Of a stretch of 64,000 nucleotides of DNA, positions 1,188-51,257 are shown one piece after another (within the stretch, counting starts at the first letter, position 1; the number at the start of each line of letters is the position of its first letter). The notes under the pieces are model-generated. The model saw nothing but the letters and a program-made list of their open reading frames with translations. It searched no databases and was not told where the DNA came from. The position numbers and the translations under genes were made by a program. This DNA comes from Candidatus Schekmanbacteria bacterium (lineage in GTDB: Bacteria > CSSED10-310 > JACPHN01): assembly GCA_016188575.1 (NCBI GenBank), contig JACPHN010000012.1:8197-72196 (forward strand). Reading direction: 5' to 3'.

Positions 1188-1523
1188 GATGGGTAATGAT
1201 AGCCCAAGTCACGGATCGCTACCGCCTACCCGTGCGCTCGTCGCGTGAGCGGCGGGAGCAGCACCACGGTCGCGACGTGGCGTGCCACTGGTATTTCTCG
1301 GAAAGAGCCGGTATCATGGTTGACGTGGGGTGCCGCGCGGCCCGTGGTTTCGGAGGGGCAGGATGCGGGTGATCGAGCACCATATCCTGGTCTTGTGCGC
1401 CGGGCAGGCCGTGGGCGCGGACGCCGCTGCCGCTATGATGGGCTCCGCGGGCGGCCAGGCTCAGAGTGTCGGCTGGCCACCGCGAAACGGGGCGATCTTT
1501 CAGTTCTCAGCGAGAGGGAGAGC

Positions 1524-2891
1524 ATGTGGGGACGTAGCGCACTTGTAATTTCTATTGGTTTCCTTTTGTTCCTGTCCGCCGTTAGAAACCTGGACGCCGC
1601 TCCTCTCGACGCCCGGTTCACCTACCAGGGGTACCTCACGGACGGCGGCCTCGCCGCCAACGGAGCCTACGATCTGACGTTTTCGCTGTTCGACGCGAGC
1701 GCGGACGGGAACCAGATCGCTTCCACCGTCACCGTGGCCGATGTGACCGTCACAAATGGCACCTTCTCGACGGCGCTCGATTTCGGCGCCGGCGCGTTCA
1801 CGGGTGATGAGCGCTTCCTGGAAATCGCCGTCAGACAGGGCGCAAGCTCGGGAGCATACACCCCACTTTCGCCGCGCCATCGACTGGATGCCACGCCCCA
1901 CGCTCAGTTTGCCATCTCGGCCAACAGTGTGCCGTGGAGCGGCGTATCCGGCGTGCCAGCGGACCTGGCCGACGGTGACAATGACACGACCTACGCCGCT
2001 GGCCAGGGGTTGGCTCTGTCCGCAGGTGAGCTCAGCGCGTCGTTCGGCGGCACCGGCAGCGCGACCTCCGTGGCGCGCAGTGACCACGACCACGCCGGTA
2101 CCTACGCGGACTCCGGTCACGATCACGACGCGAGCTACTACACGGAGACCGAGCTCAACACCAGTGGAGCTGGAGGCCAGGTGCACTGGAACAATCTCAC
2201 CAGCGTGCCGTCCGGCCTTGCCGACGGCGACCAGGACACCACGTATTCGGCGGGCAACGGACTGACTTTGACCGGCACGACGTTCGCCGTCAGCTTTGCC
2301 GGCACCGGCGCCGCCACTACTGCCGCGCGCAGCGACCACGACCACAACTCCAGCTACTATACGGAGTCCGAGTCCGATTCACGCTTTGTCAACGCGACCG
2401 GCGACACCATGACGGGTAACCTCACGGTTCCAAAGGTGGCCTATTCCACTCCCCGCACGTGCTACTTTTCCGTCAGCGGTGAGCACTTCGTCACGTGGAC
2501 GAATTCCAACTACAGCAGTGGCGGTGGGAACGGCGGCGCGAACGGCCTGACGGGCCAGGATCACCTCGTCGCCGCGGCAAGCTTCCCGCAAGGTGCGGTG
2601 ATAACACAGCTCAAGCTCTACTACTACGATACGAGCGCTAATAATAATTTGACTGGTCGTCTGCTGTGCCTCTATTTTACAGGAGGGTACTCAATCCCAG
2701 CCACTGCTTATAGCTCAGGCTCCACTGGCTATGGTTCAAGCAGTACTGCGGCACCTTATACTATAGATAACACTGTACAGGCATGCTCCGTCGATGTTTT
2801 TCCTACCAGCGGAAACTGGGATGATGGAGGGAGCTATTCTCTAAAAGTCATGGGCGCCGTCATTACGTATACTGTATCCGAGGCGGACTAG
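1524..2891 (+). CDS. secreted tail-fibre-like repeat protein (hypothetical)
   Basis: Track ORF 1245..2891. The most plausible start is ATG 1524, preceded by GAGAGGGAGAG and giving a signal peptide MWGRSALVISIGFLLFLSAV. Two ~45-aa tandem repeats (LADGDxDTTYxAGxGLxL..SFxGTGxA..ARSDHDH..YYTExE). A GDTMTGNL motif like those of phage tail-fibre/receptor-binding proteins. The last ~260 nt (2630-2891) are AT-rich versus the rest of the gene. Confidence 0.6.
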   Translation: MWGRSALVISIGFLLFLSAVRNLDAAPLDARFTYQGYLTDGGLAANGAYDLTFSLFDASADGNQIASTVTVADVTVTNGTFSTALDFGAGAFTGDERFLEIAVRQGASSGAYTPLSPRHRLDATPHAQFAISANSVPWSGVSGVPADLADGDNDTTYAAGQGLALSAGELSASFGGTGSATSVARSDHDHAGTYADSGHDHDASYYTETELNTSGAGGQVHWNNLTSVPSGLADGDQDTTYSAGNGLTLTGTTFAVSFAGTGAATTAARSDHDHNSSYYTESESDSRFVNATGDTMTGNLTVPKVAYSTPRTCYFSVSGEHFVTWTNSNYSSGGGNGGANGLTGQDHLVAAASFPQGAVITQLKLYYYDTSANNNLTGRLLCLYFTGGYSIPATAYSSGSTGYGSSSTAAPYTIDNTVQACSVDVFPTSGNWDDGGSYSLKVMGAVITYTVSEAD

Positions 2892-2996
2892 GCAATTCTT
2901 GAAGGCATTAACGAGGACGATGGTTACGGCTGAGCCCTGCCGTGACCATCCTTTCTGAAGTCGCTTGCTGAGTAGGGCGAGTAAGGAGGCTGAGCA

Positions 2997-3530
2997 ATGA
3001 AGAGCTCACGAAATTTCCCGTCAGTGTTACTTGTGCTGAGTGTTTTTCTGGCTGTTGCCGCCGCGGCTACTGCTTTTGCATCCGACACTACGGAGATCAA
3101 GACTGATCAGGGTGCGCAGGTGCAGGTGTCGGAGGATGGAAGCGTAAATCTCAGCGCCGGTGGGAACCAGGTCAAAGTGGACGCTGGAAGCGTCGAATTG
3201 TCCGGCGATAGCGAGGCTCCGGCGACCAGCACGGGCGCGGGCGCAACTCTGGCCATCGACGGCACGGGCAAGAAAATCGTCCATACATGTGACGCAACTC
3301 ACGCTCGGGCGATCGAGCTGTCGGGCTCAGGTCAGGCCCTCGAGCTCAAAGGCGAGTGTGAGCGGCTTGAAGTTTCGGGCACCAACAACACAGTGACCGC
3401 GGAGGCGCTGGGCGCGATCGAAGTGTCCGGAGTCGCCAACAAGGTCGCCTACAAGAAGGGCCTGGCGGAAAAGCTGCCGAAGATCGAGCAGTCCGGCTTG
3501 AATAACTCAGTGACGCAAATCACGGAGTAG
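2997..3530 (+). CDS. secreted DUF3060-like repeat protein
   Basis: GTAAGGAGG RBS 7 nt before ATG 2997. Signal peptide MKSSRNFPSVLLVLSVFLAVAAAATAFA. Repeated NxV..SG..NxV beta-strand repeats typical of DUF3060. Confidence 0.65.
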   Translation: MKSSRNFPSVLLVLSVFLAVAAAATAFASDTTEIKTDQGAQVQVSEDGSVNLSAGGNQVKVDAGSVELSGDSEAPATSTGAGATLAIDGTGKKIVHTCDATHARAIELSGSGQALELKGECERLEVSGTNNTVTAEALGAIEVSGVANKVAYKKGLAEKLPKIEQSGLNNSVTQITE

Positions 3531-3624
3531 CGCCGCCGGCGGCACTGCGACCTGCGCACGGTCGCGAGGACGCTGGCAAGCAGAGGTGGAGACGGCGAGT
3601 CGTCCCGGCGCAGCAGGCGCGGGA

Positions 3625-4797
3625 TCACTCGTCGAATTCGTGGCCGTCCACTTCCACTCCCGTGGCCAGCCATCGCTTGGCCGCCTCGCGGCCTGCTTCA
3701 TACATGGCTGTCATCGCCTCTCGCTCGAAGTAGAGATACGATCCGGCGTCGAATAGATAACCGGGTCGCGGGCGAATCTCGCGGAAAAGATTAACGCGAT
3801 CGAGGCTTAGCTCGGGAACCAGCGCCGCCAGTGCGTTTCGGTCCAGCAATAGCTTCCGATCGATATTGTACGCGTTTTCCAGAAACGCATCCGCCAGGCG
3901 CTCAATGGCCCCGCCGAAGGTTGCCAGCGAGTCGCCGTTCTTGTGCTCGCGAACTGTGACCAGTACGGGGACGATACGCCGGGCGCCGAGCGATACCGCC
4001 GGGGCCAGCGGGGTATTCACCAGGAGGCCGCCATCCCAAAGCTCCCGCCGGCCAATCCTTACGGGATTGAAGAGAACCGGAATCGAGGCACTTGCAATGA
4101 TCATGTCGAGCGAGATCGTTGGGCTGTAGAGGTAGTGCCGGGCAGCGGCCGCATCGCGTTTCTTGGGCGGGTAGTTGACGATGCGGACGACGCCGCCGTC
4201 TTTGGCGTCCACCGTGTTGATGGCCAGTCGTGTCGTCGTTTGCTTCAGCTCAGGAGCGCCAATGGCGCGCTGCAACCGAATCCGCAGCTCATCCGTATTG
4301 AACAGGTACGAAGCGCGGATGTGCTCGAGAATGAAGCTGATCGTGTCGAAGCGCGCCGTCATGAGATATTGGAGCAGCAGCGCGCAACACTCGCTCGGCA
4401 AGTACCATCGGTGCTTCGCGAACAGCCGGCGCAGAATCGATATCTCGCGGGCACGCTTGCTGAGCGGGCGCGTGGGTTCGATGAGCAAGACCTCCTTCAG
4501 CGCTTGGAGGAGGGTGGCGAAGAAGGAGTGATTGGCGATCACCGGCGGGTCGTCGGCCAGCTCAAGCCAGAAGCTCAGCATCTGGTCCGGATCAAGGCCG
4601 GCGGCGATAAGCGCGCCGTTCAGGGCTCCGGCCGAGGTCCCACTCACCACTTCAGGCGCCCTCTCCAGACCCCGGGGATCGCGGCGCAAGACTTCGTACA
4701 CGCCGACCTGAAACGCCCCCCGTGCGCCACCACCGGACAAGACCAGACCGATCGGCTGGTCTTCGTTTGCTCGCAAGTCCACATCCGCCTGGCGCAT
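3625..4797 (-). CDS. patatin-like phospholipase
   Basis: Oxyanion GGGARG, nucleophile elbow GTSAG and catalytic DGG motif in track ORF 3625..4869. The start is placed at ATG 4795-4797 (MRQADVDL), which has GGAGGAGG upstream. Confidence 0.8.
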   Translation of the reverse strand: MRQADVDLRANEDQPIGLVLSGGGARGAFQVGVYEVLRRDPRGLERAPEVVSGTSAGALNGALIAAGLDPDQMLSFWLELADDPPVIANHSFFATLLQALKEVLLIEPTRPLSKRAREISILRRLFAKHRWYLPSECCALLLQYLMTARFDTISFILEHIRASYLFNTDELRIRLQRAIGAPELKQTTTRLAINTVDAKDGGVVRIVNYPPKKRDAAAARHYLYSPTISLDMIIASASIPVLFNPVRIGRRELWDGGLLVNTPLAPAVSLGARRIVPVLVTVREHKNGDSLATFGGAIERLADAFLENAYNIDRKLLLDRNALAALVPELSLDRVNLFREIRPRPGYLFDAGSYLYFEREAMTAMYEAGREAAKRWLATGVEVDGHEFDE

Positions 4798-4974
4798 CCG
4801 TTGTGCCTCCTCCGCTTCTCTGCCCAACCGTGGGAACGCCACCTCAGCCGCACTGTATATACCGCGCACCTCGGACCCAGCCGTCTACGATACATCGCCG
4901 CGCCGCTCCCGGCAAGGAGGCTTGGCGGCGATCATGGTCGCGCCAAGCAGCGCGGTTGTCGCAAAGCCGTGGAG

Positions 4975-5235
4975 TCAGGCCACCGTCAAGACCGGCCGCG
5001 CATTGCGCCAGTACCCGCAGACGACGCGGTCGCAATATGCCACGTGGGTCTCTCCGCTCGCGTCGCGCGCGACGGCCAGAATGCTTACCCCGCACGCGGG
5101 GCACCGCTCGGTGGATGCGAGGCCGCTCGCGCCGGTGCGCGCGGCGTGCTCGAGCGATAGCCTCCAGAAGTACTGAATCCGCAGGCGGTTCAGCGTCCTC
5201 GCTTCGAATAGGCTTCGTTGTGAGTATCGCACCAT
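4975..5235 (-). CDS. possible small Cys-containing protein (CPAC..C..C), very tentative
   Basis: 86-codon frame MVRYSQ..CPACGVSILAVARDASGETHVAYCDRVVCGYW in the gap between the patatin and EF-hand genes. No clear RBS. Confidence 0.2.
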   Translation of the reverse strand: MVRYSQRSLFEARTLNRLRIQYFWRLSLEHAARTGASGLASTERCPACGVSILAVARDASGETHVAYCDRVVCGYWRNARPVLTVA

Positions 5236-5335
5236 CGTTTTCGAACCGGACTTGCTGCAGAGGCCGGCAAAAGCGTAGCATTGCTGGGCACACGAAATCC
5301 AGCCGGCCACGCGACCGTCACCGGCTGGCAGCAGC

Positions 5336-6400
5336 CTAGATGGAGGAGGGGGCATGCAGACTCCGCCGCTTTGCAATCTGTGTGACCGCGGCGTACCATT
5401 CTGACCACGAGAGCGTGCGATTCGCGACACTCGCGCCGCGCTGATCGGTGTCAACGGCATCCAGGGCAAGCCGCGCCGCCAATTGGGCCACGAGCTCTCG
5501 ATGAGCGACCTTGGTGGGAAGCTGTCGATGGGCACTGTCGCGAAGCTCCTTGAACGAGAGGCGGCCGTCTCGATTCGCCGCATCGATCCGGTCGAACTGG
5601 CGCCGCGCCGCCGCACGCACCTGCTCAACGGAGGATGTCTTCCCAACTCCGGGCGCCAGCGTTTGCAGGATGCGTAGCTCAAACGTTTGAAATTCGTTCC
5701 AGGTGACCCGGCCGTCGCCGTTCTTGTCCAGCTCTTTCAGCAGCGCCGCCGCCGCGCCATCCAACTTCTTCCCGCGAAACCATTCTCCCTCAGCGAAGCG
5801 AAGATCTCGATCGAGATACCGGCGCAGCTCGGCAAGGCCAAAGGTCTGATTTGCGGTTTTCGCTCCGCGCGAGCCGGCCCCAAGAATCCTGTTGAAAACT
5901 CGTCCTACTGGACCATTGACGGACTGTCCGGGATTGGTCGTGGCACAGTTTCCACTCACCGATTGAGGCTCCCCAGCGCTTTCGGGTGCTCTGGCGGGCT
6001 CGCCGCTGGCTGGTGTCGAGCCGGAGCTTTCCTTCTCGAGCCGCGACCCGGCCACCGGCGTGGGGCGTGAGGACCGGGCTGCCAGGGCGCTGACATCGAC
6101 AGCATGCCGCTGGGCGGCTGCGTTCGCAGCGGCCCCGTGCGGCCTGCCAACAGCAGTGAGCAGCCCAAGCTGCTCTCGCTGCTGAGGGAGCGCAGCGTCC
6201 TCCCTGATCAGCTCCACGCCGGCGGCGGTGAGTGGCGCGATGCCCCTGATGGGCTCCGGCGACACGGGTTCCTCGCCAATACGATGATAGTAGTGTCCTG
6301 CGGCAGTGATGGCACGAGTGATCATCTTCATGCTCCGTGGTGATGACAGTTTGCTCGCGGTTTCTGGGGGGATTACGACAGAGGTCGGTGGCGTATTCAC
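5336..6400 (-). CDS. EF-hand calcium-binding domain protein
   Basis: Canonical EF-hand loop DKNGDGRVTWNEF plus a degenerate second one (DAANRDGRLSFKEL). Long low-complexity N-terminal region. The start is uncertain (ATG alternatives near 6331/6325). Confidence 0.55.
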   Translation of the reverse strand: MNTPPTSVVIPPETASKLSSPRSMKMITRAITAAGHYYHRIGEEPVSPEPIRGIAPLTAAGVELIREDAALPQQREQLGLLTAVGRPHGAAANAAAQRHAVDVSALAARSSRPTPVAGSRLEKESSGSTPASGEPARAPESAGEPQSVSGNCATTNPGQSVNGPVGRVFNRILGAGSRGAKTANQTFGLAELRRYLDRDLRFAEGEWFRGKKLDGAAAALLKELDKNGDGRVTWNEFQTFELRILQTLAPGVGKTSSVEQVRAAARRQFDRIDAANRDGRLSFKELRDSAHRQLPTKVAHRELVAQLAARLALDAVDTDQRGASVANRTLSWSEWYAAVTQIAKRRSLHAPSSI

Positions 6401-6505
6401 AGGGTCGCGTCTTGGTCAGCGACACTCAGGGCCGAGGCAATGGACAGACGCTTGACTTCGGCCGCAGGCAAGCCATACGAATGGCCAGCAAGGTGACGCG
6501 ACCTC

Positions 6506-7132
6506 GTGTCTGCCCCCCTTTTTTCCGGAAGTGCAATGGTTCGCGGTGGTTTCATGGAAACGCAGTGGAAATGTGGACGTGTACATATCCTGGCGGCCAT
6601 AGCAGCGGCACTTGCCGCCGCGGCGCTCATGACCCCGGAACCGGAGCAGAGCGCGCTGACGGCGTGGTTTTTCCCGGGTGCCCCCGGCGCCAGCGCATCT
6701 CCTTCCGCTCGGCGCGTTTCCGGCTCCGCTGGCTACCGGGAGCTGCGCGGCGCGCTACTGGCGCAACTTGATCGGCTACCGGTCAAGGAGCAGGACGGTA
6801 GCGAGCGACCTGTCGTGCTGAGCCCGACCGCGATCGCCGGCGATTACGTCGGCGTTGTCGCGCCGCCGCTGAGCGGCCAGACTGCGCAGCAGCAGCTCGA
6901 GGCACTGGATGAGATGACCGCTGCACCGATCGAGAAGCTCATTTCGCTGTTTCCGGATCTGCGCGAGTCGGGTGACGGCACCGCGGCCGACCGCGAAGTG
7001 ATGGCGCGAGCGCGGGTAGCGGCTCTCGTAGCGTTGCTCGAGCTTGACGGCCACCGCACCCGGGCGGCGCGGGCAAGTGGCTTCGAGCCGCGCGAAGCCG
7101 TAGCCGGCACCGGCAACTCCCCGCCGCAATAA
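6506..7132 (+). CDS. hypothetical protein with N-terminal hydrophobic/signal segment
   Basis: Track ORF. Hydrophobic stretch RVHILAAIAAALAAAALM near the N-terminus. No recognisable domain. Alternative starts at 6536/6554. Confidence 0.4.
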   Translation: MSAPLFSGSAMVRGGFMETQWKCGRVHILAAIAAALAAAALMTPEPEQSALTAWFFPGAPGASASPSARRVSGSAGYRELRGALLAQLDRLPVKEQDGSERPVVLSPTAIAGDYVGVVAPPLSGQTAQQQLEALDEMTAAPIEKLISLFPDLRESGDGTAADREVMARARVAALVALLELDGHRTRAARASGFEPREAVAGTGNSPPQ

Positions 7133-7179
7133 GGCCAATGGCGCCAGCGCGCCGCCTTGGCGGGCGATCGGAAGGCTCC

Positions 7180-7325
7180 CGGATTCGTCACCTGCAGGCT
7201 GTGCGAAAAGCACATCACGAAGACGCCGCACCTCACCTCCCCCCGCACGCGGAGGGAGGGTGGGGGGCGCTGAGGCGCAGATGCGGACCGGCGGTGGATC
7301 CAGGGAGCTTCGGGTCTCCTTGACA
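7180..7325 (+). repeat. copy A of a ~140-bp dispersed repeat (hairpin core CCTCCCCCC..GGAGGGAGGG); its 3' end supplies the TTGACA -35 box
   Basis: Shares CATCA(C/A)GAAGAC(G/T)CC, CTCACCTCC..GCGG(A/G)GAGGG and GGCGGTGGAT blocks with the copies at 32008-32150 and 41791-41955. Confidence 0.7.
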
Positions 7326-7348
7326 CCAGCCTCATCCGGTGGTATAAT
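7320..7348 (+). promoter_or_regulatory. consensus sigma70-type promoter (TTGACA-17 nt-TATAAT)
   Basis: TTGACA at 7320-7325, a 17-nt spacer, TATAAT at 7343-7348. It sits ~200 bp upstream of rsgA and ~70 bp upstream of the leader ORF. Confidence 0.55.
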
Positions 7349-7420
7349 CGAGTTTATTCTCGCGTAGCTTTCATCTGCTACGCCCCGCATGACCTCATAC
7401 CTCGGGAAAGGAGGCTGTTT

Positions 7421-7480
7421 ATGGTGCGCAGAGAATATGCAGGATTCGCCCCCAGCCTCGTATCGAGGTCGGTGCGCTAA
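7421..7480 (+). CDS. 19-codon leader ORF (MVRREYAGFAPSLVSRSVR) in the rsgA 5' leader
   Basis: AAGGAGG (7408-7414) 6 nt before ATG 7421; TAA at 7478-7480. Flanked by hairpins at 7362-7383 (gcgtagc-N8-gctacgc) and 7494-7510 (cccac-N7-gtggg). Confidence 0.3.
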   Translation: MVRREYAGFAPSLVSRSVR

Positions 7481-7549
7481 CCGGGGTCTTGCGCCCACTG
7501 ATGCGGTGGGAATACACATTCCGGTTCGCGGCTCCGGCTTTCGCCATTC

Positions 7550-8664
7550 ATGACATGTTCGCTGAACCGGAGTGTACTCGAATTGGATCTCACCAATCTG
7601 GGCTGGTGCCCGCAGTTTTGCTCGCAGTTCGACACCTTTCGCGCTGAAGGATTCCTCCCGGCGCGGATTGGGTGTGAGTATCAGCACATCTACACCATTT
7701 TCAGTGACGCCGGCATCCTCTCCGCGCGCGTCTCGGGCCGCTTCCGTCATCGCGCCGATGATCGCTCGGATTTTCCCGTAGTCGGCGATTGGGTTGCGGT
7801 CGAGCTCTCGAGCCTCCGCGATCAAGCAACCATCCATGCGACTCTACCGCGGCGAACTTCCGTTTGCCGAAAAGTCGCGCCGGCAACGTGACCGATCGCC
7901 AGGTCATCGTCGCCAACATCGACGTGCTTTTCATCGTCTGCGCACTCGACTTCGACTTCAACATCAGAAGGATCGAGCGATATCTCGCCGTTGCCCGCGA
8001 AAGTGGCGCCGAGCCTGTCGTCGTCCTCAACAAGGCCGACCTCGTCGCCGACCCGGCCGCATTCGTGCAAAAGGTCTCGCAGACCGCTCCCGAAGCGCCG
8101 GTTCTCGTCATGTCCGCCCTGGAGGGAGCGGGAATCGACCAGCTTGGTCACTACTTGAGCCGTGGCAAGACCGGTGCTCTGCTCGGATCGTCGGGCGTTG
8201 GAAAATCGACCATCCTCAACAGCATGATGGGGCTGGAGCTTCAGGAAACCAACTCCGTGCGGAGCTCGGATGGGCGCGGCCGCCACACCACCACGTCGCG
8301 CGCCCTCGTGCCCTTGCAAAACGGCGGTGCCATCATCGACAACCCGGGCATGCGGGAAGTTCAAGTGTGGTGCGAAGACGAGAGCATAGACGCCGTCTTC
8401 GACGACATCGAGGCGCTCTCCGAGGACTGTCGATTCAGCGATTGCTCGCATACTGTCGAACCGGGGTGCGCGATTCTCGCCGCCGTGGGCGCCGGAGCAA
8501 TCGATGGGGAACGCCTCGGGAACTATCGGAAACTCCAGCGCGAAGCGGCGTTCCTGGCACGCCGCCAGGACCAGCGCGCAAGGCTGGACGAAAAAAGGCG
8601 TGTCAAGCAGATCACCAAGCGGTTCGAGCGCCGAGCTCGATCGGCCAACCGGGGCGGCGCGTAA
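7550..8664 (+). pseudogene. rsgA: ribosome small-subunit-dependent GTPase A (RsgA/YjeQ), interrupted by an apparent 1-nt frameshift near 7876-7882 (or a sequencing error)
   Basis: OB-fold N-terminus (CEYQHIYTIF..RVSGRFRH..PVVGDWV) in frame 7550..7891. Circularly permuted GTPase motifs (LNKADL, GSSGVGKSTILN, DNPG) and a Cys/His zinc finger (CRFSDCSH..C) in frame 7789..8664. The frames would join as ..RKVAPGNVTDRQVIVANID if one extra G is assumed in gcgccggcaac. Confidence 0.75.
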
Positions 8665-8871
8665 GCACCGCCGGCCGCTAGCCCGCCGGTGGACGCCCCG
8701 CGCCGCCGGCGGCCCCGGCGGCTGCCGATCGCCGGTCACATACGGGGCCGGCTTCCCCAAGCGATGCAGCACGGACAACAGTTGCGCCTTGGCACCCGAT
8801 AACTGTTCCGAAAATACCCCGCTCGTAAACGCGAGAGAAAAGCCACGCCAGGCGAGGAAAGGAATCTACCG

Positions 8872-10077
8872 ATGACCATGCGCGTCACGGAGACCGGGCA
8901 CTCATACGATTTTCCACCAACGACCCAAGCCCCGATCCACATTGTCCGGCGCGGCGAAACCCTGTCGGGCATCGCACGCGAGCACGGCACCACCTGGCAG
9001 GAGCTCGCGCGGTTCAACAACTTCCCCGATCCCAATCATATCGTCGCGGGTCAGGCCATCCGCATTCCGGAGACGGTCCGCGGCTCGACCCAGCTCGACG
9101 ACGCGCCGGCTCTGGCGCGCCGCCCAACCACGGACGGTTACGAGACCGCCGCCTCCGACCGCTACGGCATTGCGGCTGCCGCTGCCGCAGAGGGCGGTGA
9201 TGCCGGCGCCGTCCAGCACACCACGCTCAGACACGGGAGCCACTCAGCAGAAGTCACGCAAATGCAACTACGGCTCGCGGAGCTCGGCTTCCCTCCAGGG
9301 CCGGCGGATGGCGTTTTCGGACCGGAGACTCGCGCGGCCGTGCGTAGATTTCAGAAGGCGAATCTGCTTGCGGCCGACGGCGTCGTGGGACCGCTGACCT
9401 GGTCGGCTCTCGATGCGGGTCGCGCGGCCGCGCCGCCCGAGGCTTCGCCGACAGGGCCGACGGTACCAGCTCCGGCGCTTCCCATGGGCGGCTTTGACGG
9501 CTCGCACCCGGCGCGCGCGGTTAGCGGCGTGCGGCCGTGGCTTCCCGTCGACGCCCCACTCATCAATGGCGAGGGAGACCGTTCTGCGGCCAGCTACGAT
9601 CAGGTCATCAATCAGTTCGGCGTCGGCAGAAACCGGCGCTACGAAGTCAATCAGCAAGGGCGCGACGACACGTACTGCAACATCTTCTCCTGGGATGTGA
9701 CCCGCGCCATGGGCGCCGAGATTCCGCACTACGTGGATCGAGACGGTAACCCCATGACGCGCGAAGCGGCGCTGCGAACGCCCGGCTATCGCGAGCTGAG
9801 CGGCAATCGCACGGCGCGATGGCTCCGCGACCATGGCGAGGATCACGGCTGGCGAATCGTGACGGCAGAGGAGGCACAACGGCGCGCCAATCTCGGACAC
9901 CCAACCGTGGCAACCCGCGAGAACCCCTCGGGCGCCGGGCACATCGCCGTTGTCCGCCCCGGTGAGCTAACAGCAGACGGCCCTGCCATCGCACAGGCCG
10001 GCGGTCGCAACTTCAATCGGGGCCACGTCCGTGACGGCTTTCACGGCCGAGCTCCTGTCTACTATTCCCACGACTGA
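8872..10077 (+). CDS. peptidoglycan hydrolase-like protein: LysM + PG-binding (PGRP-like) + C-terminal Cys/His (CHAP/NlpC-like) domain
   Basis: LysM (HIVRRGETLSGIAREHGTTWQELARFNNF..GQAIRIP). PG_binding_1-like (LRLAELGF..DGVFGPETRAAVRRFQ). A C-terminal YCNIFSWDV ... GHIAVVRPG Cys/His pair. GAGGAAAGG upstream. Confidence 0.65.
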   Translation: MTMRVTETGHSYDFPPTTQAPIHIVRRGETLSGIAREHGTTWQELARFNNFPDPNHIVAGQAIRIPETVRGSTQLDDAPALARRPTTDGYETAASDRYGIAAAAAAEGGDAGAVQHTTLRHGSHSAEVTQMQLRLAELGFPPGPADGVFGPETRAAVRRFQKANLLAADGVVGPLTWSALDAGRAAAPPEASPTGPTVPAPALPMGGFDGSHPARAVSGVRPWLPVDAPLINGEGDRSAASYDQVINQFGVGRNRRYEVNQQGRDDTYCNIFSWDVTRAMGAEIPHYVDRDGNPMTREAALRTPGYRELSGNRTARWLRDHGEDHGWRIVTAEEAQRRANLGHPTVATRENPSGAGHIAVVRPGELTADGPAIAQAGGRNFNRGHVRDGFHGRAPVYYSHD

Positions 10078-10125
10078 CGCACCACCGGCGACATCGCCGC
10101 TACCTCAGCGCCCCTGACTCCGCTC

Positions 10126-10614
10126 ATGCAAGGCAAACTTCGTGATCATTCCGGCTTCTATTACTTGCGGCCGCAAGGAATCGGCGCAGGATACACGGAG
10201 TACTTTGCTCTGTTTCGCGATGGCACCTGGCTTCAGAGCACCGAGCATCCGTGCCACGAGCACAATGAGCCGATTGACGAGCTCGTGCTGGCGCGCCGTG
10301 GCCAGTGGAGTGTCACCGAGAACCGACTCGCGATGATCGAAACCGAGCGCGACGTGTACAGGGGGGGCCGCTTCGACTGCCAGGGATTCTGGTGCGAACC
10401 GGCTGAAGGTCAGCTCCTCACTCTTCGAGACGATCTCGTGGTGGCTGTCGAGGAGGACCGGCTCAGCATCAGCATTGGCTCGGCCGCCACCGCCGGCGCT
10501 CGCGTGGCAACGCTCTGGATCGAAGGCACGCTGTACTTCAACCTGGGTGCTGCAGAGGACTTCGTTGACCCACCGGCGCCCTGCGGGCTTGACATCCGTA
10601 GGCCGTTGGCCTGA
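10126..10614 (+). CDS. hypothetical protein
   Basis: GC3-rich, balanced composition. The overlapping minus-strand ORF 10105..10722 is Arg-rich and less protein-like. No domain recognised. Confidence 0.4.
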   Translation: MQGKLRDHSGFYYLRPQGIGAGYTEYFALFRDGTWLQSTEHPCHEHNEPIDELVLARRGQWSVTENRLAMIETERDVYRGGRFDCQGFWCEPAEGQLLTLRDDLVVAVEEDRLSISIGSAATAGARVATLWIEGTLYFNLGAAEDFVDPPAPCGLDIRRPLA

Positions 10615-10727
10615 ATCTGAGCGCGATTTCGGGGCGAAATGTCGGCCTACGACAGGCTGGCCGAGCGGACCCACTTTTCGGACTGCCCCCGCCAACTGGC
10701 GGTCTTCCATTGTTGGAGCCACTATCG

Positions 10728-11207
10728 ATGAACGAAGCAGCCAAGAAAAAGGCCTTGCTCATGGTGCCCTACGGACTTCAGGTCCTCGGCGCCAAGAGCG
10801 GCGAGGCCATGAGCCTCTCCACGGTCAACTGGTGCACGCAATGCTCCTTCAAGCCGCCGCTCGTTGCGGTGGCGTTGAAAGTCGCGTCGCATACTCACGC
10901 TCTTGTCAAAGAGGGCGGCGCATTCTCGCTGAGCTTTCTCGGCACCGGGCAAAAAGATGTCGCATTTTCCTTCTTCAAGCATAGCCTGCCCGAAGGCAAC
11001 ACCATGGCCGGACACGCTTTCACCCTTTCTCCGGTGACGGCCTCGCCGGTTCTGCAAAGCGCGCCCGCCTGGGTTGAATGCCGAGTCGTTGGCTTCTACG
11101 AGCACGGCGATCATTCGCTCGTCGTGGGCGAGGTCGTGGAGGCGAGCGCCAACTTCGAGAGTGAGCCGCTTACCCTGAAAGAGGTTGGAGCAAAGTACGG
11201 CGGATGA
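10728..11207 (+). CDS. flavin reductase-like (FMN-binding split barrel) protein
   Basis: Flavin_Reduct-type pattern (..LSTVNWCTQCSFKPPLVAVAL..GGAFSLSFLG..). Its stop overlaps the next start (ATGA at 11204-11207). Confidence 0.6.
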   Translation: MNEAAKKKALLMVPYGLQVLGAKSGEAMSLSTVNWCTQCSFKPPLVAVALKVASHTHALVKEGGAFSLSFLGTGQKDVAFSFFKHSLPEGNTMAGHAFTLSPVTASPVLQSAPAWVECRVVGFYEHGDHSLVVGEVVEASANFESEPLTLKEVGAKYGG

Positions 11208-13138
11208 GCACTGAAATTCGCACGACGACCTGCAACCGGGATTGCCCGGACGCATGCCACATCGAAGTCACGGTCGAGCATGGCCGCGCGGTGAAACTCG
11301 CGGGGAGCAAGCGACACCCCGTGACCAGCGGCTTCCTGTGTCTTCGCACCAACCGGTTCCTGGAGCGGCACGCATCCCCCGACCGGCTCACCGCGCCACT
11401 GCTGCGGAGGAACGGAGAGCTAGCTCCCGTGAGCTGGCAAGAGGCGCTCGACCATGCCGCAACAGAGCTTCTCCGGATCCGCGGAGAATCGGGTCCAGCA
11501 GCGATTTTCCATTACCGCAGCGGCGGTTCGCTAGGCCTGTTGAAACATCTGTGCGACTATTTCTTCGAGCGCTTCGGGCCGGTAACGACCAAGTCAGGCG
11601 ACATCTGCAGCGGTGCTGCCGAGGCCGCTCAGGAGCTTGATTTCGGGGTCAGCGACAGCAGTGACATTTTTCAACTGCTGCGCGCACGTCAAGTCATCCT
11701 GTGGGGGAAGAACATTGTCACCTCGAGCCCCCACCTGGTACCAATCCTGCGTGAGGCACGGGGGCGCGGAGCGGAAGCCGTGCTCATCGACCCCGTGTGG
11801 AACAAGACCGCGCAGCTTTGCGACCGCTTCTTGCAAGTCCGTCCGGGTGGAGATCTCCCGCTCGCGATGGCGGTTGCCCACATCCTCTTCGATTCGGGCT
11901 GGGTTGACCCCGCAGCCGCGTCGTATTGTGGCAATTTGGAGCAATTTCGCGAGCTCGCGACCTCCAGAAGCGTGGGCTCCTGGTGCGCAAGCGCCGATCT
12001 CCCTGTGACGGACGCCGCCGACCTTGCCCGCCGTCTGGGCTGCGCGGGTCCCGCAACCATCCTCGTAGGCTGGGGCATGGGCCGCCGGGCAGACGGGGGC
12101 AGCACCGTCCGGGCTCTGGATGCGCTCGCCGCGGTTTCGGGCAATCTCGGCATTCCCGGCGGCGGCGTGTCCTTCTATTACCGGCGCCGTGCCGCATTTG
12201 ACCTGTCTTTTCTCGGCGGTGCCGCACGCGCTCCACGAACGGTTTTCGAGCCGCAGCTCGGGGCCCAGCTAGAGGCTCTTGACGACCCACCGATCCGCGC
12301 CGTTTGGGTGACCGCCGGCAATCCCGTGGCGATGCTCCCAGACTCGGCTCGCACCGACCGGGCGCTGCGCCAGCGGGAGCTTGTTGTTGTCGTCGACAGC
12401 TTTCTCACCGACACCGGCCGCGCCGCAACCCTGGTCCTTCCGACGACAACGATGCTCGAAGACGATGACATCGTTGGCGCCTATGGACACCATTGGCTCG
12501 GCGAGGTACGCCCCGCCTGCGACCGTCTGCAGGGAGTCCGCACCGACCTGGAAATCATGCAGGAGCTGGCGGCGCGCGTGGGGTTGGGAGCCGTGCTGGC
12601 GGGTTCAGCACGTGACTGGAAGCAGCGGCTCCTCGCCGTGGAGGGTGGGCAGCAACCCGTCTCTCTGGATCAGGTGTCGGCAGGGCCGATTCGCAACCCC
12701 CTGGCGCCCGACGTGCTCTTCGCGGATCGGCGCTTTCCGACGCCGAGTGGGCGAGTAAACCTCATGGCGGAGCTCCCGCCGCTTCCGGAGGTGCCGGCGC
12801 CCAGCACAGCCTTCCCGCTGCTGCTGTTGTCCATCTCCACCCCGCGTTCCCAGAGCTCGCAGCAGACTGATGCGTTGGCTGTGCCCGCGCCGGCCACCGT
12901 GCATCCGGATAGCGCTTGCGGCTTGGGCGCCGGTTCGGTCTGCCGTCTCGTCTCCCCCATCGGCACCATGGAGGTAACCTTGGTCCTCGACCACCGCCAA
13001 CGCAAAGATGTCGTCCTGCTGCCCAAAGGAGGACACTTCCATTCCGGGCACTGCGCCAACGCCCTGATCGGCGGGCGGCCAACCGATCTCGGTGGAGGTG
13101 GTGCCATTCACAGCGAGTATGTTCACATCGAGGCGTGA
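11204..13138 (+). CDS. molybdopterin-dependent oxidoreductase (MopB superfamily) with N-terminal 4Fe-4S Cys cluster
   Basis: CNRDCPDAC..C motif at the N-terminus. Molybdopterin oxidoreductase-like body. Translationally coupled to the upstream flavin reductase. Confidence 0.7.
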   Translation: MSTEIRTTTCNRDCPDACHIEVTVEHGRAVKLAGSKRHPVTSGFLCLRTNRFLERHASPDRLTAPLLRRNGELAPVSWQEALDHAATELLRIRGESGPAAIFHYRSGGSLGLLKHLCDYFFERFGPVTTKSGDICSGAAEAAQELDFGVSDSSDIFQLLRARQVILWGKNIVTSSPHLVPILREARGRGAEAVLIDPVWNKTAQLCDRFLQVRPGGDLPLAMAVAHILFDSGWVDPAAASYCGNLEQFRELATSRSVGSWCASADLPVTDAADLARRLGCAGPATILVGWGMGRRADGGSTVRALDALAAVSGNLGIPGGGVSFYYRRRAAFDLSFLGGAARAPRTVFEPQLGAQLEALDDPPIRAVWVTAGNPVAMLPDSARTDRALRQRELVVVVDSFLTDTGRAATLVLPTTTMLEDDDIVGAYGHHWLGEVRPACDRLQGVRTDLEIMQELAARVGLGAVLAGSARDWKQRLLAVEGGQQPVSLDQVSAGPIRNPLAPDVLFADRRFPTPSGRVNLMAELPPLPEVPAPSTAFPLLLLSISTPRSQSSQQTDALAVPAPATVHPDSACGLGAGSVCRLVSPIGTMEVTLVLDHRQRKDVVLLPKGGHFHSGHCANALIGGRPTDLGGGGAIHSEYVHIEA

Positions 13139-13195
13139 CCGACAGGTCGAAGCATTTCGTTCAGCCTGGCGGGGCTCTGATTCGGATGAGGAAGG

Positions 13196-14368
13196 ATGAG
13201 CGCCTGGATTCCGTTTCACAAACCGGATATCGGCGAAGAGGAAATAGGCGCTGTTGTCGATTGCCTGCGCAGTGGATGGCTGACGACGGGACCGAGAACG
13301 GCGGCGTTCGAAAACGACTTCGCGAGCTACCTCGGAGTACGCCGTGCCGTGGCGGTCAGCTCCTGCACGGCGGCGCTCCACCTTGGGCTGCTCGCGGCTG
13401 GCATCGGTCCGGGTGACGAGGTGGTAACGACGCCGTTCACTTTTCCAGCGACTGTCAATGTCATTCTCCATGCCGGCGCCAAACCGGTCTTTGCGGACAT
13501 CGACCGTGAGACGCTGAATATCTCCGTTGCCGCCGCTGAGCAGTGCATCAGCCGCCGCACCAAGGCGCTAGTGCCAGTCCATTACGCGGGACGTGCATGC
13601 CCCATCCGAGAGCTCCGAGCGCTCGCTGAGCACCACGGCCTGTATCTGCTACAGGATGCAGCCCATGCCATAGAGACCGCGGTGGAGGGACGATCCGTGG
13701 CGGGCTACGGACACGCCGCAGCCTACAGCTTCTACGCCACCAAGAACATCTCGACAGCCGAGGGCGGCATGTTGGCCAGCGACGACGAGGAGATCGCGAA
13801 TCGCGTGCGATTGCTGCGCCTGCACGGCATCTCGCGCGACGCCTGGAAGCGATATCGAGAGCCCGGCCACGGTTTGTTCACCTGCGAGGCCGTGGGGTTC
13901 AAGTGCAATCTCACGGACGTTCAGTCCGCGCTCGGGCTCGCGCAATTGAAGCGCATCGACGAGCTATGGGAAAAACGCCGGCGACGGTCACAGGAATACG
14001 ACCGCCTGCTGGGCAGCGCCTTGCCCGATGTCGCATGCGTTTGCCGTGTCGCCGAAGACTCGCGAGTCAGCCGCCACGCGCACCACCTGTACGTCGTCCT
14101 GTTGCCGCTCGAACAGCTCTTCGCCGACCGCGACACCATCATGCGCGCGATGGAAGAAGAGGGCATCGGCGTCAGCTTGCATTTCCAGCCGCTGCATGAA
14201 ATGCCACTCTACGCAAAGCTCCTTGGAACGTGCGCCGATGACTGTCCGGCCGCGAGCTGGGCGGGGCAGCGCTGCCTCTCATTGCCACTGTACCCGGGCC
14301 TCGAGAGCAGCGACCAGAGCCGCATCGTTGATTCGCTCGTCCGAGTACTTGACCGATTCCGGAGATAG
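13196..14368 (+). CDS. DegT/DnrJ/EryC1/StrS-family PLP-dependent sugar aminotransferase
   Basis: GAGGAAGG RBS. Typical DegT N-terminus (IPFHKPDIGEEEI..) and the PLP-lysine region YATKNISTAEGGML. Confidence 0.8.
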   Translation: MSAWIPFHKPDIGEEEIGAVVDCLRSGWLTTGPRTAAFENDFASYLGVRRAVAVSSCTAALHLGLLAAGIGPGDEVVTTPFTFPATVNVILHAGAKPVFADIDRETLNISVAAAEQCISRRTKALVPVHYAGRACPIRELRALAEHHGLYLLQDAAHAIETAVEGRSVAGYGHAAAYSFYATKNISTAEGGMLASDDEEIANRVRLLRLHGISRDAWKRYREPGHGLFTCEAVGFKCNLTDVQSALGLAQLKRIDELWEKRRRRSQEYDRLLGSALPDVACVCRVAEDSRVSRHAHHLYVVLLPLEQLFADRDTIMRAMEEEGIGVSLHFQPLHEMPLYAKLLGTCADDCPAASWAGQRCLSLPLYPGLESSDQSRIVDSLVRVLDRFRR

Positions 14369-14386
14369 CCCGATAGTACATCCATC

Positions 14387-14683
14387 ATGGCGAACACGTG
14401 GAATGAAATCGTCGTTGTCTGTCCGGGGCACATGGGCTTTGCCCAGATGCACGCCGCCAACGCCATTGTTTCGCACGCGCTTGGCGAAAGCGTCTCCTTG
14501 CGCTTTTCCATGACCGAGCAGGGGGTGTTCGTGGGCTCGCACGTCAGCAGCTCGCCGCTCCAGGGCATCGAGACGATTCAGGAGGCACTGGAGACGGTCG
14601 CAACAGCCGGCGGGCAACTCCCTCTCTTGCTGCTGCTCCTCCATGACGGTGCACTTCGCTACCAGTTGTCTGGAACTTTCTAA
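14387..14683 (+). CDS. small hypothetical protein (faint DsrE/YchN-like pattern), tentative
   Basis: 98-aa ORF, GC3-rich. IVVVCPGHMGF..A..A..HALGESV pattern. Poly-Leu tract. No RBS. Confidence 0.3.
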   Translation: MANTWNEIVVVCPGHMGFAQMHAANAIVSHALGESVSLRFSMTEQGVFVGSHVSSSPLQGIETIQEALETVATAGGQLPLLLLLLHDGALRYQLSGTF

Positions 14684-14741
14684 GGCACCGCTGGCGCCTG
14701 GCGCAGACGCCTCGTTGAAAGCGTGGCAATCGCGGAGAGCG

Positions 14742-16637: not shown

Positions 16638-16681
16638 CTTGGCGCCGAGCGAGCCGATCAAGATCCGGGCGAGGGACGCTC

Positions 16682-18286: not shown

Positions 18287-18294
18287 GTCGATCG

Positions 18295-19860: not shown

Positions 19861-19991
19861 GGGATGCGGCCGATCTGGGTTGCGAGCCGGCGAACCGCGG
19901 CGGCTCGCGCGATGCCTGTCATCTTCAACAATACCACGCCTGCGTGCCGCTGACAAGCATGACCCGTGCATGTCGTCGGCCATCGCCGGCT

Positions 19992-31862: not shown

Positions 31863-32007
31863 GTCGCAGCCTCACCTCCCAGGGCCCCGCCATCGAGCTC
31901 GCGAGCAAGGATACCCGGCCGGGCCTTGCGCGGGGTGCATCGCCGTCCAATTTCAACGGCAGTTTACCGGCGAAGGTCCGGTAGCGCAAGGGGCCGTATT
32001 CGCCTAA

Positions 32008-41763: not shown

Positions 41764-41790
41764 CTGGAGTCAACCGCGCCCCCAGGGCCT

Positions 41791-51207: not shown

Positions 51208-51257
51208 GTGAGATCCTCCCGAAGTTGGAGCAATGCCGGGGCCGGGCCGGCGCGATG

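What the first reader, a model, noticed from the sequence alone, without database searches (positions are those of the whole stretch)
7320..7550. Perfect consensus sigma70 promoter, structured leader and 19-codon ORF upstream of rsgA
TTGACA-17-TATAAT is a perfect match. That is rare in a high-GC genome.

The predicted transcript begins with a 7-bp-stem hairpin. It carries a strong AAGGAGG-ATG leader ORF (MVRREYAGFAPSLVSRSVR). A second hairpin precedes rsgA, which itself lacks a recognisable SD.

This arrangement is typical of leader-peptide or attenuation control. Alternatively it could be a small protein or type I toxin-like gene. No such control is described for rsgA.
Basis: seen in the sequence. 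Interest (0 to 1): 0.55.

Follow-up and report, generated by a model that had tools for sequence, protein, structure and literature searches.

The report
Leader ORF switch upstream of RsgA paralog
A perfect promoter, a 19-codon mini-gene and RNA hairpins sit in front of a ribosome-assembly GTPase gene, and similar mini-genes precede this gene's relatives in many bacterial phyla, so this looks like an undescribed ribosome-sensing control region.

Summary
TTGACA-17-TATAAT (7320-7348) is the only site of that kind in 64 kb. AAGGAGG-6-ATG (7408-7423) is also unique and opens a 19-codon ORF (7421-7480). rsgA most likely starts at TTG 7583. It does have a Shine-Dalgarno sequence (SD), GGAG at 7569-7572, buried in a 15-bp hairpin.

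No close relative of this lineage (a Candidatus Schekmanbacteria MAG) exists in the databases, and no Rfam family matches. I therefore examined 160 loci encoding RsgA relatives (40-53% identical).

- SD-preceded short ORFs lie upstream of 40 of 76 rsgA genes with a free upstream region, against 16 of 169 neighbouring genes (p=7e-13).
- The commonest lengths are 17-20 codons.
- The ORFs are often behind near-consensus promoters.
- Their own SD often pairs with a CCUC stretch inside the ORF, as it does here.
- Some loci (e.g. Anaeromonas) add an intrinsic terminator.

Best reading: an erm/hflXr-like, ribosome-occupancy-sensing leader that controls an RsgA paralog.

Caveats:
- The switch is inferred, not shown.
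- The window's alternative pairing is only marginally better than chance.
- The leader has no sequence homology to the other leaders.
- rsgA here carries a frameshift near 7876-7884.

The type I toxin reading is rejected.

The parts
7176..7309 (+). Copy of an intergenic repeat of about 135 nt with terminal inverted repeats (...ATCCGCCGCC / GGCGGTGGAT...). It ends 20 nt before the -35 box and is not part of the leader proper.
   Evidence: nhmmer profile hits at 7176-7309, 41785-41929, 32002-32131 and 51320-51390(-); alignments.
7320..7348 (+). Perfect sigma70-type promoter: TTGACA (7320-7325), 17 nt, TATAAT (7343-7348), with extended -10 TG at 7340-7341. Predicted transcription start about 7355-7356.
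   Evidence: unique in the window at up to 1 mismatch; 0/100 shuffles. TATAAT occurs once in the window.
7362..7383 (+). 5'-terminal stem-loop: 7-bp stem GCGUAGC/GCUACGC with an 8-nt loop. Probably a transcript-stabilising 5' hairpin.
   Evidence: Sequence. Present in every predicted fold.
7386..7397 (+). Segment 1 (CGCAUGACCUCA). In the minimum-energy fold it pairs with segment 2 and closes a long hairpin around the whole leader ORF.
   Evidence: Duplex -16.4 to -16.7 kcal/mol, 6 of 1000 shuffles as good.
7408..7414 (+). [quoted passage not shown] GAGGCUG (7411-7417) pairs with CAGCCUC (7453-7459) inside the ORF.
   Evidence: SD1:distal-ORF duplex -15.8 against -12.2 kcal/mol in shuffles, p=0.06. 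The same design is significant in 25 of 58 homologous leaders.
7421..7480 (+). Leader ORF of 19 codons plus TAA: MVRREYAGFAPSLVSRSVR. It contains rare codons AGA, AGG, GTA and GCA.
   Evidence: codon usage. Analogous ORFs, mostly of 17-20 codons, lie upstream of RsgA-paralog genes.
7475..7493 (+). Segment 2 (CGCUAACCGGGGUCUUGCG). It overlaps the last sense codon and the stop codon of the leader ORF. It pairs either with segment 1 or, as CGCUAACCGGGGU, with segment 3. AACCGGGGU is a near-copy of the SD2 stretch AACCGGAGU.
   Evidence: The 2:3 helix is the predicted fold when the transcript ends at 7548. 2:3 duplex -11.5 to -17.5 kcal/mol, p=0.08.
7494..7510 (+). Small hairpin CCCACUG-AUG-CGGUGGG between segments 2 and 3.
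7516..7575 (+). Segments 3 (7516-7530) and 4 (7560-7575) form a 15-bp hairpin. Its 3' arm contains the rsgA Shine-Dalgarno sequence GGAG (7569-7572). ATG 7550 lies in its loop.
   Evidence: probability that the SD is unpaired is about 0 in all folds. Duplex -25 kcal/mol, 1 of 1000 shuffles as good.
7583..7891 (+). rsgA paralog, N-terminal reading frame. Probable start is TTG 7583 (MDLTNLGW...). The frame ends at TGA 7889-7891 because of a frameshift around 7876-7884.
   Evidence: Pfam RsgA_N. The alignment with ten homologues places their starts 2-3 residues before LxxLGW.
7880..8664 (+). rsgA paralog, GTPase and zinc-finger part in the other reading frame. The repaired protein is a full-length RsgA.
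   Evidence: Pfam RsgA_GTPase E=7e-48. Repaired protein scores 153 bits on TIGR00157 against a cut-off of 100. It matches PDB RsgA structures and keeps the invariant columns across the junction.

Best explanation
The region is the promoter and about 225-nt 5' leader of an RsgA-paralog GTPase gene. It is built as a ribosome-occupancy-sensing leader-ORF switch of the erm/hflXr kind.

Elements read from the sequence:
- A consensus sigma70 promoter should give strong, probably constitutive transcription from about 7356.
- The transcript opens with a protective 5' hairpin.
- It then carries a 19-codon ORF with the strongest ribosome-binding site in the window.

Predicted resting fold:
- The leader ORF is locked in a long hairpin. 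Segment 1 pairs with segment 2, and SD1 pairs with a CCUC stretch in codons 11-13.
- The rsgA ribosome-binding site (GGAG 7569-7572, weak UUG start at 7583) is buried in a 15-bp helix formed by segments 3 and 4.
- In this state little RsgA would be made.

Inferred switch:
- A ribosome that lingers inside the leader ORF keeps segment 1 from pairing with segment 2.
- Segment 2 is a near-copy of the SD2 stretch. It can then pair with segment 3, and segment 4 with the rsgA SD is left free.
- This would be most likely co-transcriptionally, before segment 4 has been made.
- Slowed or stalled translation would therefore raise synthesis of the GTPase.

In AT-rich relatives the same logic appears to be wired through an intrinsic terminator instead.

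Status of each step:
- Shown: the elements, their uniqueness, the predicted helices, and the recurrence of such leader ORFs across the gene family.
- Inferred: translation of the ORF, the switching, and the signal sensed. The signal could be translation inhibitors or ribosome defects.
For: In the window:
- The promoter is unique in 64 kb. The RBS plus ATG is also unique.
- Helix 3:4 masks the SD. The probability that it is unpaired is about 0, the energy is -25 kcal/mol and p=0.001.
- Helix 1:2 has p=0.006.
- The 2:3 helix is the predicted fold of the transcript truncated at 7548. Segment 2 matches segment 4 in 8 of 9 bases.

In the gene family (160 loci):
- SD-preceded ORFs of 12-32 codons occur upstream of 40/76 rsgA genes with a free upstream region, against 16/169 other genes. 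Odds ratio 10.6, p=7e-13.
- They are also enriched against reverse-complement and shuffle controls: 33/77 against 9, and 27/63 against 8.
- The commonest lengths are 17-20 codons.
- Clade-conserved ORFs have frame-preserving indels, and in Limnocylindria an SD2 hairpin has a 5' arm made of the end of the ORF.
- SD1:anti-SD pairing is significant in 25/58 leaders, against about 3 expected.
- Near-consensus promoters lie about 50 nt upstream in Zixibacteriota, L045, L083, L102, L053/L066, L022 and L132.
- The isolate Anaeromonas frigoriresistens has TTGACA-17-TATAAT, an SD-ORF and a hairpin followed by T7. L022 has a GC hairpin followed by U7.

Precedents:
- hflXr, a paralog of a ribosome GTPase, is controlled by a 14-codon leader ORF (PMC6310831).
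- One of the two S. coelicolor RsgA/EngC paralogs is WblC- and tetracycline-induced (PMC7157823).
Against: - No sequence homology links this window's leader to any other leader (nhmmer). No relative closer than 56% RsgA identity exists. Conservation of this particular ORF and its hairpins therefore cannot be tested.
- The window's SD1:anti-SD duplex (p=0.06) and its 2:3 alternative helix (p=0.08) are only marginal.
- In equilibrium folds with a ribosome footprint placed on the ORF, the rsgA SD stays paired. Any switch must be kinetic.
- Across the family, masking of the rsgA SD is not significantly stronger than in control genes: median probability unpaired 0.23 against 0.28, p=0.06.
- The self-versus-cross covariation test of SD1 flanks is weak: 8.7 against 8.1, p=0.02.
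- About half of the relatives have no such ORF. Many sit in operons behind a GDE_C or GNAT gene.
- The enrichment counts include related sequences, for example nine Limnocylindria.
- rsgA is frameshifted here, so the locus may be decaying.
- There are no expression data.
Confidence: 0.55

Rival explanations
1. Transcriptional variant. The leader ORF controls premature termination, either Rho-dependent or at a non-canonical terminator such as 7494-7510, rather than access to the ribosome-binding site.
For: Relatives in AT-rich genomes carry clear intrinsic terminators between the ORF and rsgA: L022, L031 and the Zixibacteriota loci. About 100 untranslated nt follow the ORF here.
Against: No hairpin followed by a T-run lies between 7480 and 7583. 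The strongest helix masks the SD rather than preceding a U-tract. Rho dependence cannot be judged from sequence.
Confidence: 0.15
2. Strong constitutive promoter with a structured but non-regulatory 5' UTR. The short ORF is incidental, or merely a translational enhancer or coupling device.
For: The window-specific statistics for the alternative pairing are marginal. The fold z-score is only -2.6 and is similar on the opposite strand. The SD stays masked in all equilibrium folds.
Against: The unique AAGGAGG-6-ATG lies directly behind a unique perfect promoter. Such ORFs are 10-fold enriched, with a commonest length of 17-20 codons, in front of the same gene family across phyla. Clade-level frame conservation is seen.
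Confidence: 0.15
3. Relic. The locus is being lost. rsgA is a pseudogene and the leader is a leftover that no longer controls anything.
For: The frameshift around 7876-7884 splits rsgA. Neither N-terminal fragment nor any 100%-identical RsgA fragment is in the protein collection, consistent with the gene being annotated as a pseudogene. This reading is compatible with the best explanation as the element's ancestral function.
Against: The promoter and RBS are still perfect. All invariant RsgA residues are intact on both sides of the shift, so the indel is recent or an assembly error in a GC-rich run (GCGCCGGC).
Confidence: 0.1
4. Independent small gene: a functional 19-residue protein, a type I toxin, or a small RNA that happens to lie upstream of rsgA.
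For: Very strong expression signals.
Against: The peptide is basic and polar with no hydrophobic stretch, so it is unlike a membrane toxin. Peptide sequences differ completely between clades, whereas length, position and RNA pairing recur. The scan of 1-20000 found no promoter-like site on the opposite strand near the region. No terminator separates it from rsgA. There is no Rfam match.
Confidence: 0.05

Closest known systems
rli80-hflXr of Listeria monocytogenes, a ribosome-dependent attenuator in front of a paralog of a ribosome GTPase (PMC6310831)
   Same: A second copy of a housekeeping ribosome-associated GTPase is preceded by a constitutively transcribed leader. The leader holds a short translated ORF and alternative RNA structures. 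Expression is proposed to rise when ribosomes stall.
   Different: hflXr uses a 14-codon ORF with an RLR arrest motif and an intrinsic terminator, and its control is transcriptional. Here the ORF has 19 codons and no RLR motif, there is no terminator, and the mask is on the ribosome-binding site. The gene is RsgA-like (30S) rather than HflX-like (50S/70S). There is no sequence homology and no experiment.
ermC-type translational attenuation (as summarised in PMC11264731 and PMC6310831)
   Same: Four-segment logic. There is a leader ORF of about 19 codons. Segments 1:2 and 3:4 pair in the off state, with 3:4 hiding the SD of the regulated gene. A 2:3 alternative would free it.
   Different: Here segment 1 lies upstream of the leader ORF's own SD. 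That SD is itself paired with the distal part of the ORF, a self-sequestering design seen in many of the related leaders. No known arrest motif is present, the inducer is unknown, and the 2:3 helix is statistically marginal.
WblC/WhiB7-dependent RsgA/EngC paralog of Streptomyces coelicolor (SCO6149 versus SCO5211; PMC7157823)
   Same: A second RsgA copy belongs to the response to translation-targeting antibiotics.
   Different: There the induction is by a transcription factor, which is itself uORF-controlled. Here a cis-acting leader sits directly on the gene. I could not test whether SCO6149 belongs to the same RsgA subfamily.
Amino-acid operon leader peptides (trp, his, thr, leu)
   Same: A short leader ORF couples ribosome position to alternative RNA folds.
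   Different: There is no run of codons for one amino acid, no intrinsic terminator, and the downstream gene is not biosynthetic.

Membership tests
Ribosome-dependent leader-ORF attenuators (erm / hflXr type) | A short ORF with its own ribosome-binding site in the 5' leader of the regulated gene | tested here: met
   AAGGAGG-6-ATG, 19 codons, 7408-7480. The motif is unique in the window. Translation itself was not shown.
Ribosome-dependent leader-ORF attenuators (erm / hflXr type) | The RBS of the regulated gene is masked by a helix (translational type), or a terminator lies between the ORF and the gene (transcriptional type) | tested here: met
   Helix 7516-7530:7560-7575 contains GGAG 7569-7572. 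The probability that it is unpaired is about 0. Energy -25 kcal/mol, p=0.001. There is no terminator.
Ribosome-dependent leader-ORF attenuators (erm / hflXr type) | A mutually exclusive alternative pairing that links ribosome position on the ORF to the mask | tested here: inconclusive
   The 2:3 helix (7475-7487:7518-7530) forms in the fold of the transcript cut at 7548, and segment 2 mimics segment 4. However p=0.08, and equilibrium folds with a ribosome footprint keep 3:4.
Ribosome-dependent leader-ORF attenuators (erm / hflXr type) | Recurrence of the leader ORF in orthologous loci | tested here: met
   40/76 against 16/169, p=7e-13. Frame-preserving indels within clades. This holds at family level only, because no close relative of this lineage is available.
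Ribosome-dependent leader-ORF attenuators (erm / hflXr type) | Induction by ribosome stalling or translation inhibitors | not testable with these tools
   This needs reporter, toeprint or Ribo-seq experiments.
Macrolide-type arrest peptides | An RLR or +x+ arrest motif in the leader peptide | tested here: not met
   MVRREYAGFAPSLVSRSVR has no R/K-x-R/K triplet apart from adjacent RR at residues 3-4. The motifs in relatives track the CCUC anti-SD rather than a shared peptide.
Amino-acid biosynthesis leader-peptide attenuators | Tandem regulatory codons plus an intrinsic terminator | tested here: not met
   No codon runs. No hairpin with a T-tract between 7480 and 7583.
Type I toxin-antitoxin | A small hydrophobic membrane peptide and an overlapping antisense RNA | tested here: not met
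   The peptide is polar and basic. The scan of 1-20000 found no promoter-like site on the opposite strand near the region.
Any Rfam family (riboswitches, leaders, sRNAs) | A covariance-model match | tested here: not met
   No match at gathering score in the whole window. Nothing relevant up to E=10 in 7000-7800. No match in 16 related loci.
RsgA/YjeQ/EngC GTPase (downstream gene) | OB-fold N-domain, circularly permuted GTPase and zinc-finger; match to TIGR00157 | tested here: met
   Pfam RsgA_N and RsgA_GTPase. The repaired protein scores 153 bits against a cut-off of 100 and matches PDB RsgA structures. The reading frame is interrupted near 7876-7884.

The most novel reading that the evidence does not exclude
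The window holds one member of an undescribed class of leader-ORF riboregulators found in many phyla. The class consists of a strong promoter, a self-sequestered SD, an ORF of 17-20 codons, and a structured spacer or terminator. It is attached to a distinct subfamily of RsgA-like GTPases.

This would imply that these paralogs are factors induced by translation stress or antibiotics and directed at the 30S subunit. They would be the small-subunit counterpart of HflXr.

Weak hints that fit this reading:
- GNAT neighbours, some matching the Acetyltransf_9 model, the Pfam family that to my knowledge includes the aminoglycoside acetyltransferase Eis, together with APH-family, methyltransferase and ABC neighbours in several lineages.
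- The WblC-dependent RsgA paralog of Streptomyces.
Probability: 0.35. Interest if true: 0.8.

Novelty: new variant of a known kind. Interest (0 to 1): 0.62.

Why it matters
RsgA is studied as a housekeeping 30S maturation factor, and I found no cis-regulatory control described for it. A conserved leader ORF in front of a widespread second RsgA copy would mark that copy as a regulated stress factor. It would also give a testable hypothesis: induction by stalled or defective ribosomes, possibly as protection of the 30S subunit against antibiotics. Finally, it would add a new family of ribosome-sensing leaders, found in at least eight phyla, most of them known only from uncultured genomes. The self-sequestering design, in which the leader ORF hides its own Shine-Dalgarno sequence, is a variation on the erm scheme whose logic is not yet understood.

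Tried and rejected
- **Known RNA families.** Rfam gave no match at gathering score over the whole window, at E up to 10 over 7000-7800, or in 16 related loci.
- **Close relatives for direct conservation.** The genome scan, the protein search and the metagenome scan gave nothing above 56% RsgA identity. Exact look-ups of neighbouring proteins found only one 10-kb Logan contig, which does not reach rsgA, and the NCBI MAG record.
- **Sequence homology of the leader.** nhmmer with the leader against all 160 loci gave no hit.
- **Promoter as part of the upstream repeat.** The repeat's similarity ends at GGCGGTGGAT (7290-7299), before the -35 box. Relatives without the repeat also have consensus promoters. 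Rejected as the explanation. The association of the repeat with TTGAC boxes in three of four copies remains unexplained.
- **The 54-codon ORF 7389-7553**, whose stop overlaps ATG 7550. It has no SD and no Pfam hit. Rejected.
- **ATG 7550 as the rsgA start.** Homologues start 2-3 residues before LxxLGW, so this is less likely than TTG 7583.
- **Family-wide masking of the rsgA SD.** Not significant.
- **Ungapped covariation test of the SD1 flanks.** Only weak.
- **Gene-neighbourhood analysis for function.** Mixed, with common families only.
- **Literature.** No paper linking RsgA/YjeQ/EngC to a leader peptide or uORF on the gene itself.
Full report
**1. What is in the sequence**

- **Promoter.** At 7320-7348 lies TTGACA, 17 nt, TATAAT, preceded by an extended -10 TG. 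Allowing one mismatch, it is the only such site on either strand, and none of 100 dinucleotide shuffles produced one. TATAAT occurs once in the window.
- **5' hairpin.** The expected start near 7355-7356 is followed by a perfect 7-bp stem-loop at 7362-7383.
- **Leader ORF.** AAGGAGG (7408-7414) comes next, then ATG 7421 six nt later, opening a 19-codon ORF to TAA 7478-7480 (MVRREYAGFAPSLVSRSVR). AAGGAGG-N6-ATG is also unique in the window.
- **Downstream gene.** It is RsgA-like. The ORF 7550-7891 hits RsgA_N and the ORF 7789-8664 hits RsgA_GTPase.
- **Frameshift.** The two parts are in different frames. Joined at about 7876-7884 they give a protein that aligns without a gap to homologues and keeps all invariant columns. 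It scores 153 bits on TIGR00157 against a cut-off of 100 and matches solved RsgA structures. The gene therefore carries a frameshift, either real or an assembly error.
- **rsgA start.** Homologues begin 2-3 residues before the LxxLGW motif. The likely start is therefore TTG 7583 (MDLTNLGW) rather than ATG 7550. GGAG lies 10 nt upstream of it, at 7569-7572.

**2. Predicted RNA structure of the leader**

The leader folds at -92.5 kcal/mol, z = -2.6. That is modest, and the opposite strand is similar. The fold has recognisable parts.

- The 5' hairpin.
- A long hairpin enclosing the whole leader ORF. Within it:
  - segment 1 (7386-7397) pairs with segment 2 (7483-7493);
  - CCUCGG pairs with UCGAGG;
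  - the ORF's own SD (GAGGCUG, 7411-7417) pairs with CAGCCUC (7453-7459, codons 11-13).
- A small hairpin at 7494-7510.
- A 15-bp helix 7516-7530:7560-7575 that contains the rsgA SD.

Statistics for the helices:

| Helix | Energy (kcal/mol) | Shuffle test |
|---|---|---|
| 3:4 | -25 | 1 of 1000 as good |
| 1:2 | -16.7 | 6 of 1000 as good |
| 2:3 (alternative) | -11.5 to -17.5 | p=0.08 |
| SD1:anti-SD | -15.8 | p=0.06 |

- The rsgA SD has a probability of being unpaired of about 0 in every fold.
- If the transcript is cut at 7548, before segment 4 exists, the predicted fold pairs CGCUAACCGGGGU (7475-7487) with AUUCCGGUUCGCG (7518-30). The first of these covers the last sense codon, the stop codon and 7 further nt.
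- AACCGGGGU is an 8-of-9 copy of the SD stretch AACCGGAGU. This gives the four-segment layout of an erm-type attenuator.
- With a ribosome footprint imposed on the ORF, equilibrium folding still keeps 3:4. Any switch would have to be kinetic.

**3. Source and relatives**

- Two window proteins are identical to MBI2565713 and MBI2565714 of a 'Candidatus Schekmanbacteria bacterium' MAG, on a contig of 73,451 bp.
- A Logan contig of SRR12113422 is 100% identical over 2.4 kb.
- The nearest RsgA relatives are 53-56% identical among 5.8 billion proteins. They are 40-53% identical in GTDB genomes and JGI metagenomes.
- nhmmer with the leader finds nothing in any fetched locus.
- Rfam gives no match in the window or in related loci.

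**4. The comparative result**

I screened the 160 loci that encode members of this RsgA subfamily.

*Enrichment of short ORFs*
- An ORF of 8-40 codons behind a strong SD lies within 320 nt upstream of rsgA in 33 of 77 genome loci. The reverse-complement control gives 9 and shuffles give 9.2.
- The same holds in 27 of 63 metagenome loci, against 8 in the control.
- Against real genes as the control, and for ORFs of 12-32 codons: 40 of 76 rsgA genes with a free upstream region have one. Only 16 of 169 other genes in the same loci do. Odds ratio 10.6, Fisher p=7e-13.
- Lengths peak at 17-20 codons, which account for 21 of 41 ORFs.

*Clade-specific peptides*
- Limnocylindria: MTELAATTLxRTSGRAAA.
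- Zixibacteriota and allies: MAIVENSxKVSCLRLSF.
- An Armatimonadetes MAG and an unclassified bacterium (L053, L066): MEIVYCCNEILFPVMCLLATC.
- Cyanobacteria: MAESVAI...
- Others occur in Spirochaetota, Bacillota, Fermentibacteria, Acidobacteriota and the FCB group.
- In nine Limnocylindria the ORF keeps its frame through 6- and 9-nt indels.

*Shared architecture*
- The ORF's own SD pairs with a CCUC-containing stretch in the distal ORF. This is better than shuffles at p<=0.05 in 25 of 58 leaders, where about 3 are expected.
- In Limnocylindria the rsgA SD is held in a hairpin whose 5' arm is the last codons of the ORF plus UCCUUCGG.
- Near-consensus promoters lie 46-55 nt upstream of the ORF:
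  - L045: TTGACA-17-TATAAT
  - L002: TTGACA-16-TATAAT
  - L083: TTGACA-18-TAGAAT
  - L102: TTGACA-18-TACAAT
  - L053, L066, L022 and L132: 10 of 12 positions
- The isolate Anaeromonas frigoriresistens (L031) has TTGACA-17-TATAAT, AAAGGAG, a 12-codon ORF and then AGCATGG-TTAATTA-CCATGCT-TTTTTTT before rsgA.
- L022 has GGCCUUCCCGCGCGGGAAGG-UUUUUUU.
- The family therefore seems to use either RBS masking or terminators.

*Limits*
- Masking of the rsgA SD is not significantly stronger than in control genes across the whole family.
- A crude covariation test of the SD1 flanks is weak.
- About half of the loci have no leader, and many of those sit in operons.
- The counts include related sequences.

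**5. Interpretation**

The best reading is a ribosome-occupancy-sensing leader. Transcription is strong. The leader ORF is translated only occasionally because its SD is paired. rsgA has a weak UUG start and a masked SD, and it is translated only when a ribosome dwelling in the ORF redirects segment 2 to segment 3.

The peptides differ between clades. What recurs is the length, the position and the RNA pairing. A generic sensor of slow translation is therefore more likely than a specific arrest peptide.

Closest precedents:
- hflXr, a paralog of a ribosome GTPase behind a 14-codon leader ORF (PMC6310831).
- ermC.
- One of two RsgA/EngC paralogs of S. coelicolor is WblC- and tetracycline-induced (PMC7157823).

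I found no paper describing a leader ORF on rsgA.

Neighbours of these paralogs include the following, all of them common families:
- GNAT genes, 11 of 152 neighbours, six of which match the Acetyltransf_9 model
- APH-family kinases
- methyltransferases
- ABC ATPases

I treat this only as a hint that the paralog belongs with antibiotic-response functions.

**6. Rivals**

- A transcriptional (Rho or non-canonical terminator) version of the same idea.
- A non-regulatory structured UTR with an incidental ORF. This is hard to square with the enrichment.
- A relic leader in front of a dying gene. This is compatible with the ancestral function.
- An independent small protein, toxin or sRNA. This is rejected because the peptide is polar, peptides are not conserved between clades, no terminator precedes rsgA, and there is no Rfam match.

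**7. Verdict**

The leader-ORF interpretation is supported at the level of the gene family. The mechanism and the signal are inferred. The element is a new variant of a known kind, namely leader-ORF attenuators.

Noticed in passing
window 7176-7309(+), 41785-41929(+), 32002-32131(+), 51320-51390(-): An intergenic repeat family of about 135 nt. It has terminal inverted repeats (ATCCGCCGCC ... GGCGGTGGAT) and a G-rich internal hairpin, which makes it MITE/REP-like. In three of the four copies a TTGAC -35-like box follows 20-27 nt after the conserved 3' end: TTGACA-17-TATAAT at 7320, TTGACG-17-AACAAT at about 41949, and TTGACC-17-TATTAT at 51302-51274 on the minus strand. It was not found in any of the 160 loci from other organisms.
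   Followed up: partly
window 7876-7884: rsgA is interrupted by a frameshift in the run GTCGCGCCGGC. Both halves keep all residues that are invariant in homologues, so this is either a recent mutation or an assembly error.
   Followed up: partly
window 51302-51205 (minus strand): A promoter-like site TTGACC-17-TATTAT is followed at once by a perfect 16-bp palindrome TTAACCGATCGGTTAA (51273-51258), a likely operator. Then come GGGAGG and ATG 51207, which opens a gene whose N-terminus (MALIASTSRQHVKGGEIAARMLAAEHVEHVFGIIDG) looks, from my own recollection and without a family search, like a thiamine-diphosphate enzyme of the acetolactate-synthase type. The listed 756-codon ORF 49432-51702 is therefore probably over-extended at its 5' end.
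   Followed up: no
whole window: The window belongs to a 73,451-bp contig of an NCBI MAG labelled Candidatus Schekmanbacteria bacterium (proteins MBI2565713 and MBI2565714). The same strain is present in the sequencing run SRR12113422 (100% identity over 2,412 bp).
   Followed up: yes
L002 5131-6123, L022 5178-6176, L074/L076/L080 upstream ORFs, L050 upstream ORF: In several lineages the RsgA paralog is adjacent to, or overlaps, GNAT acetyltransferase genes (some matching the Acetyltransf_9 model), APH-family phosphotransferase genes or ABC ATPase genes. In an acidobacterial clade it follows a GDE_C glycogen-debranching gene with no leader.
   Followed up: partly
window 7599-7622: A terminator-like hairpin TGGGC-TGGT-GCCCG followed by CAGTTTTGCT lies 16 nt inside the rsgA coding region, over the conserved LGW codons. 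It is probably chance, but it sits where a pause or attenuation site could act.
   Followed up: no
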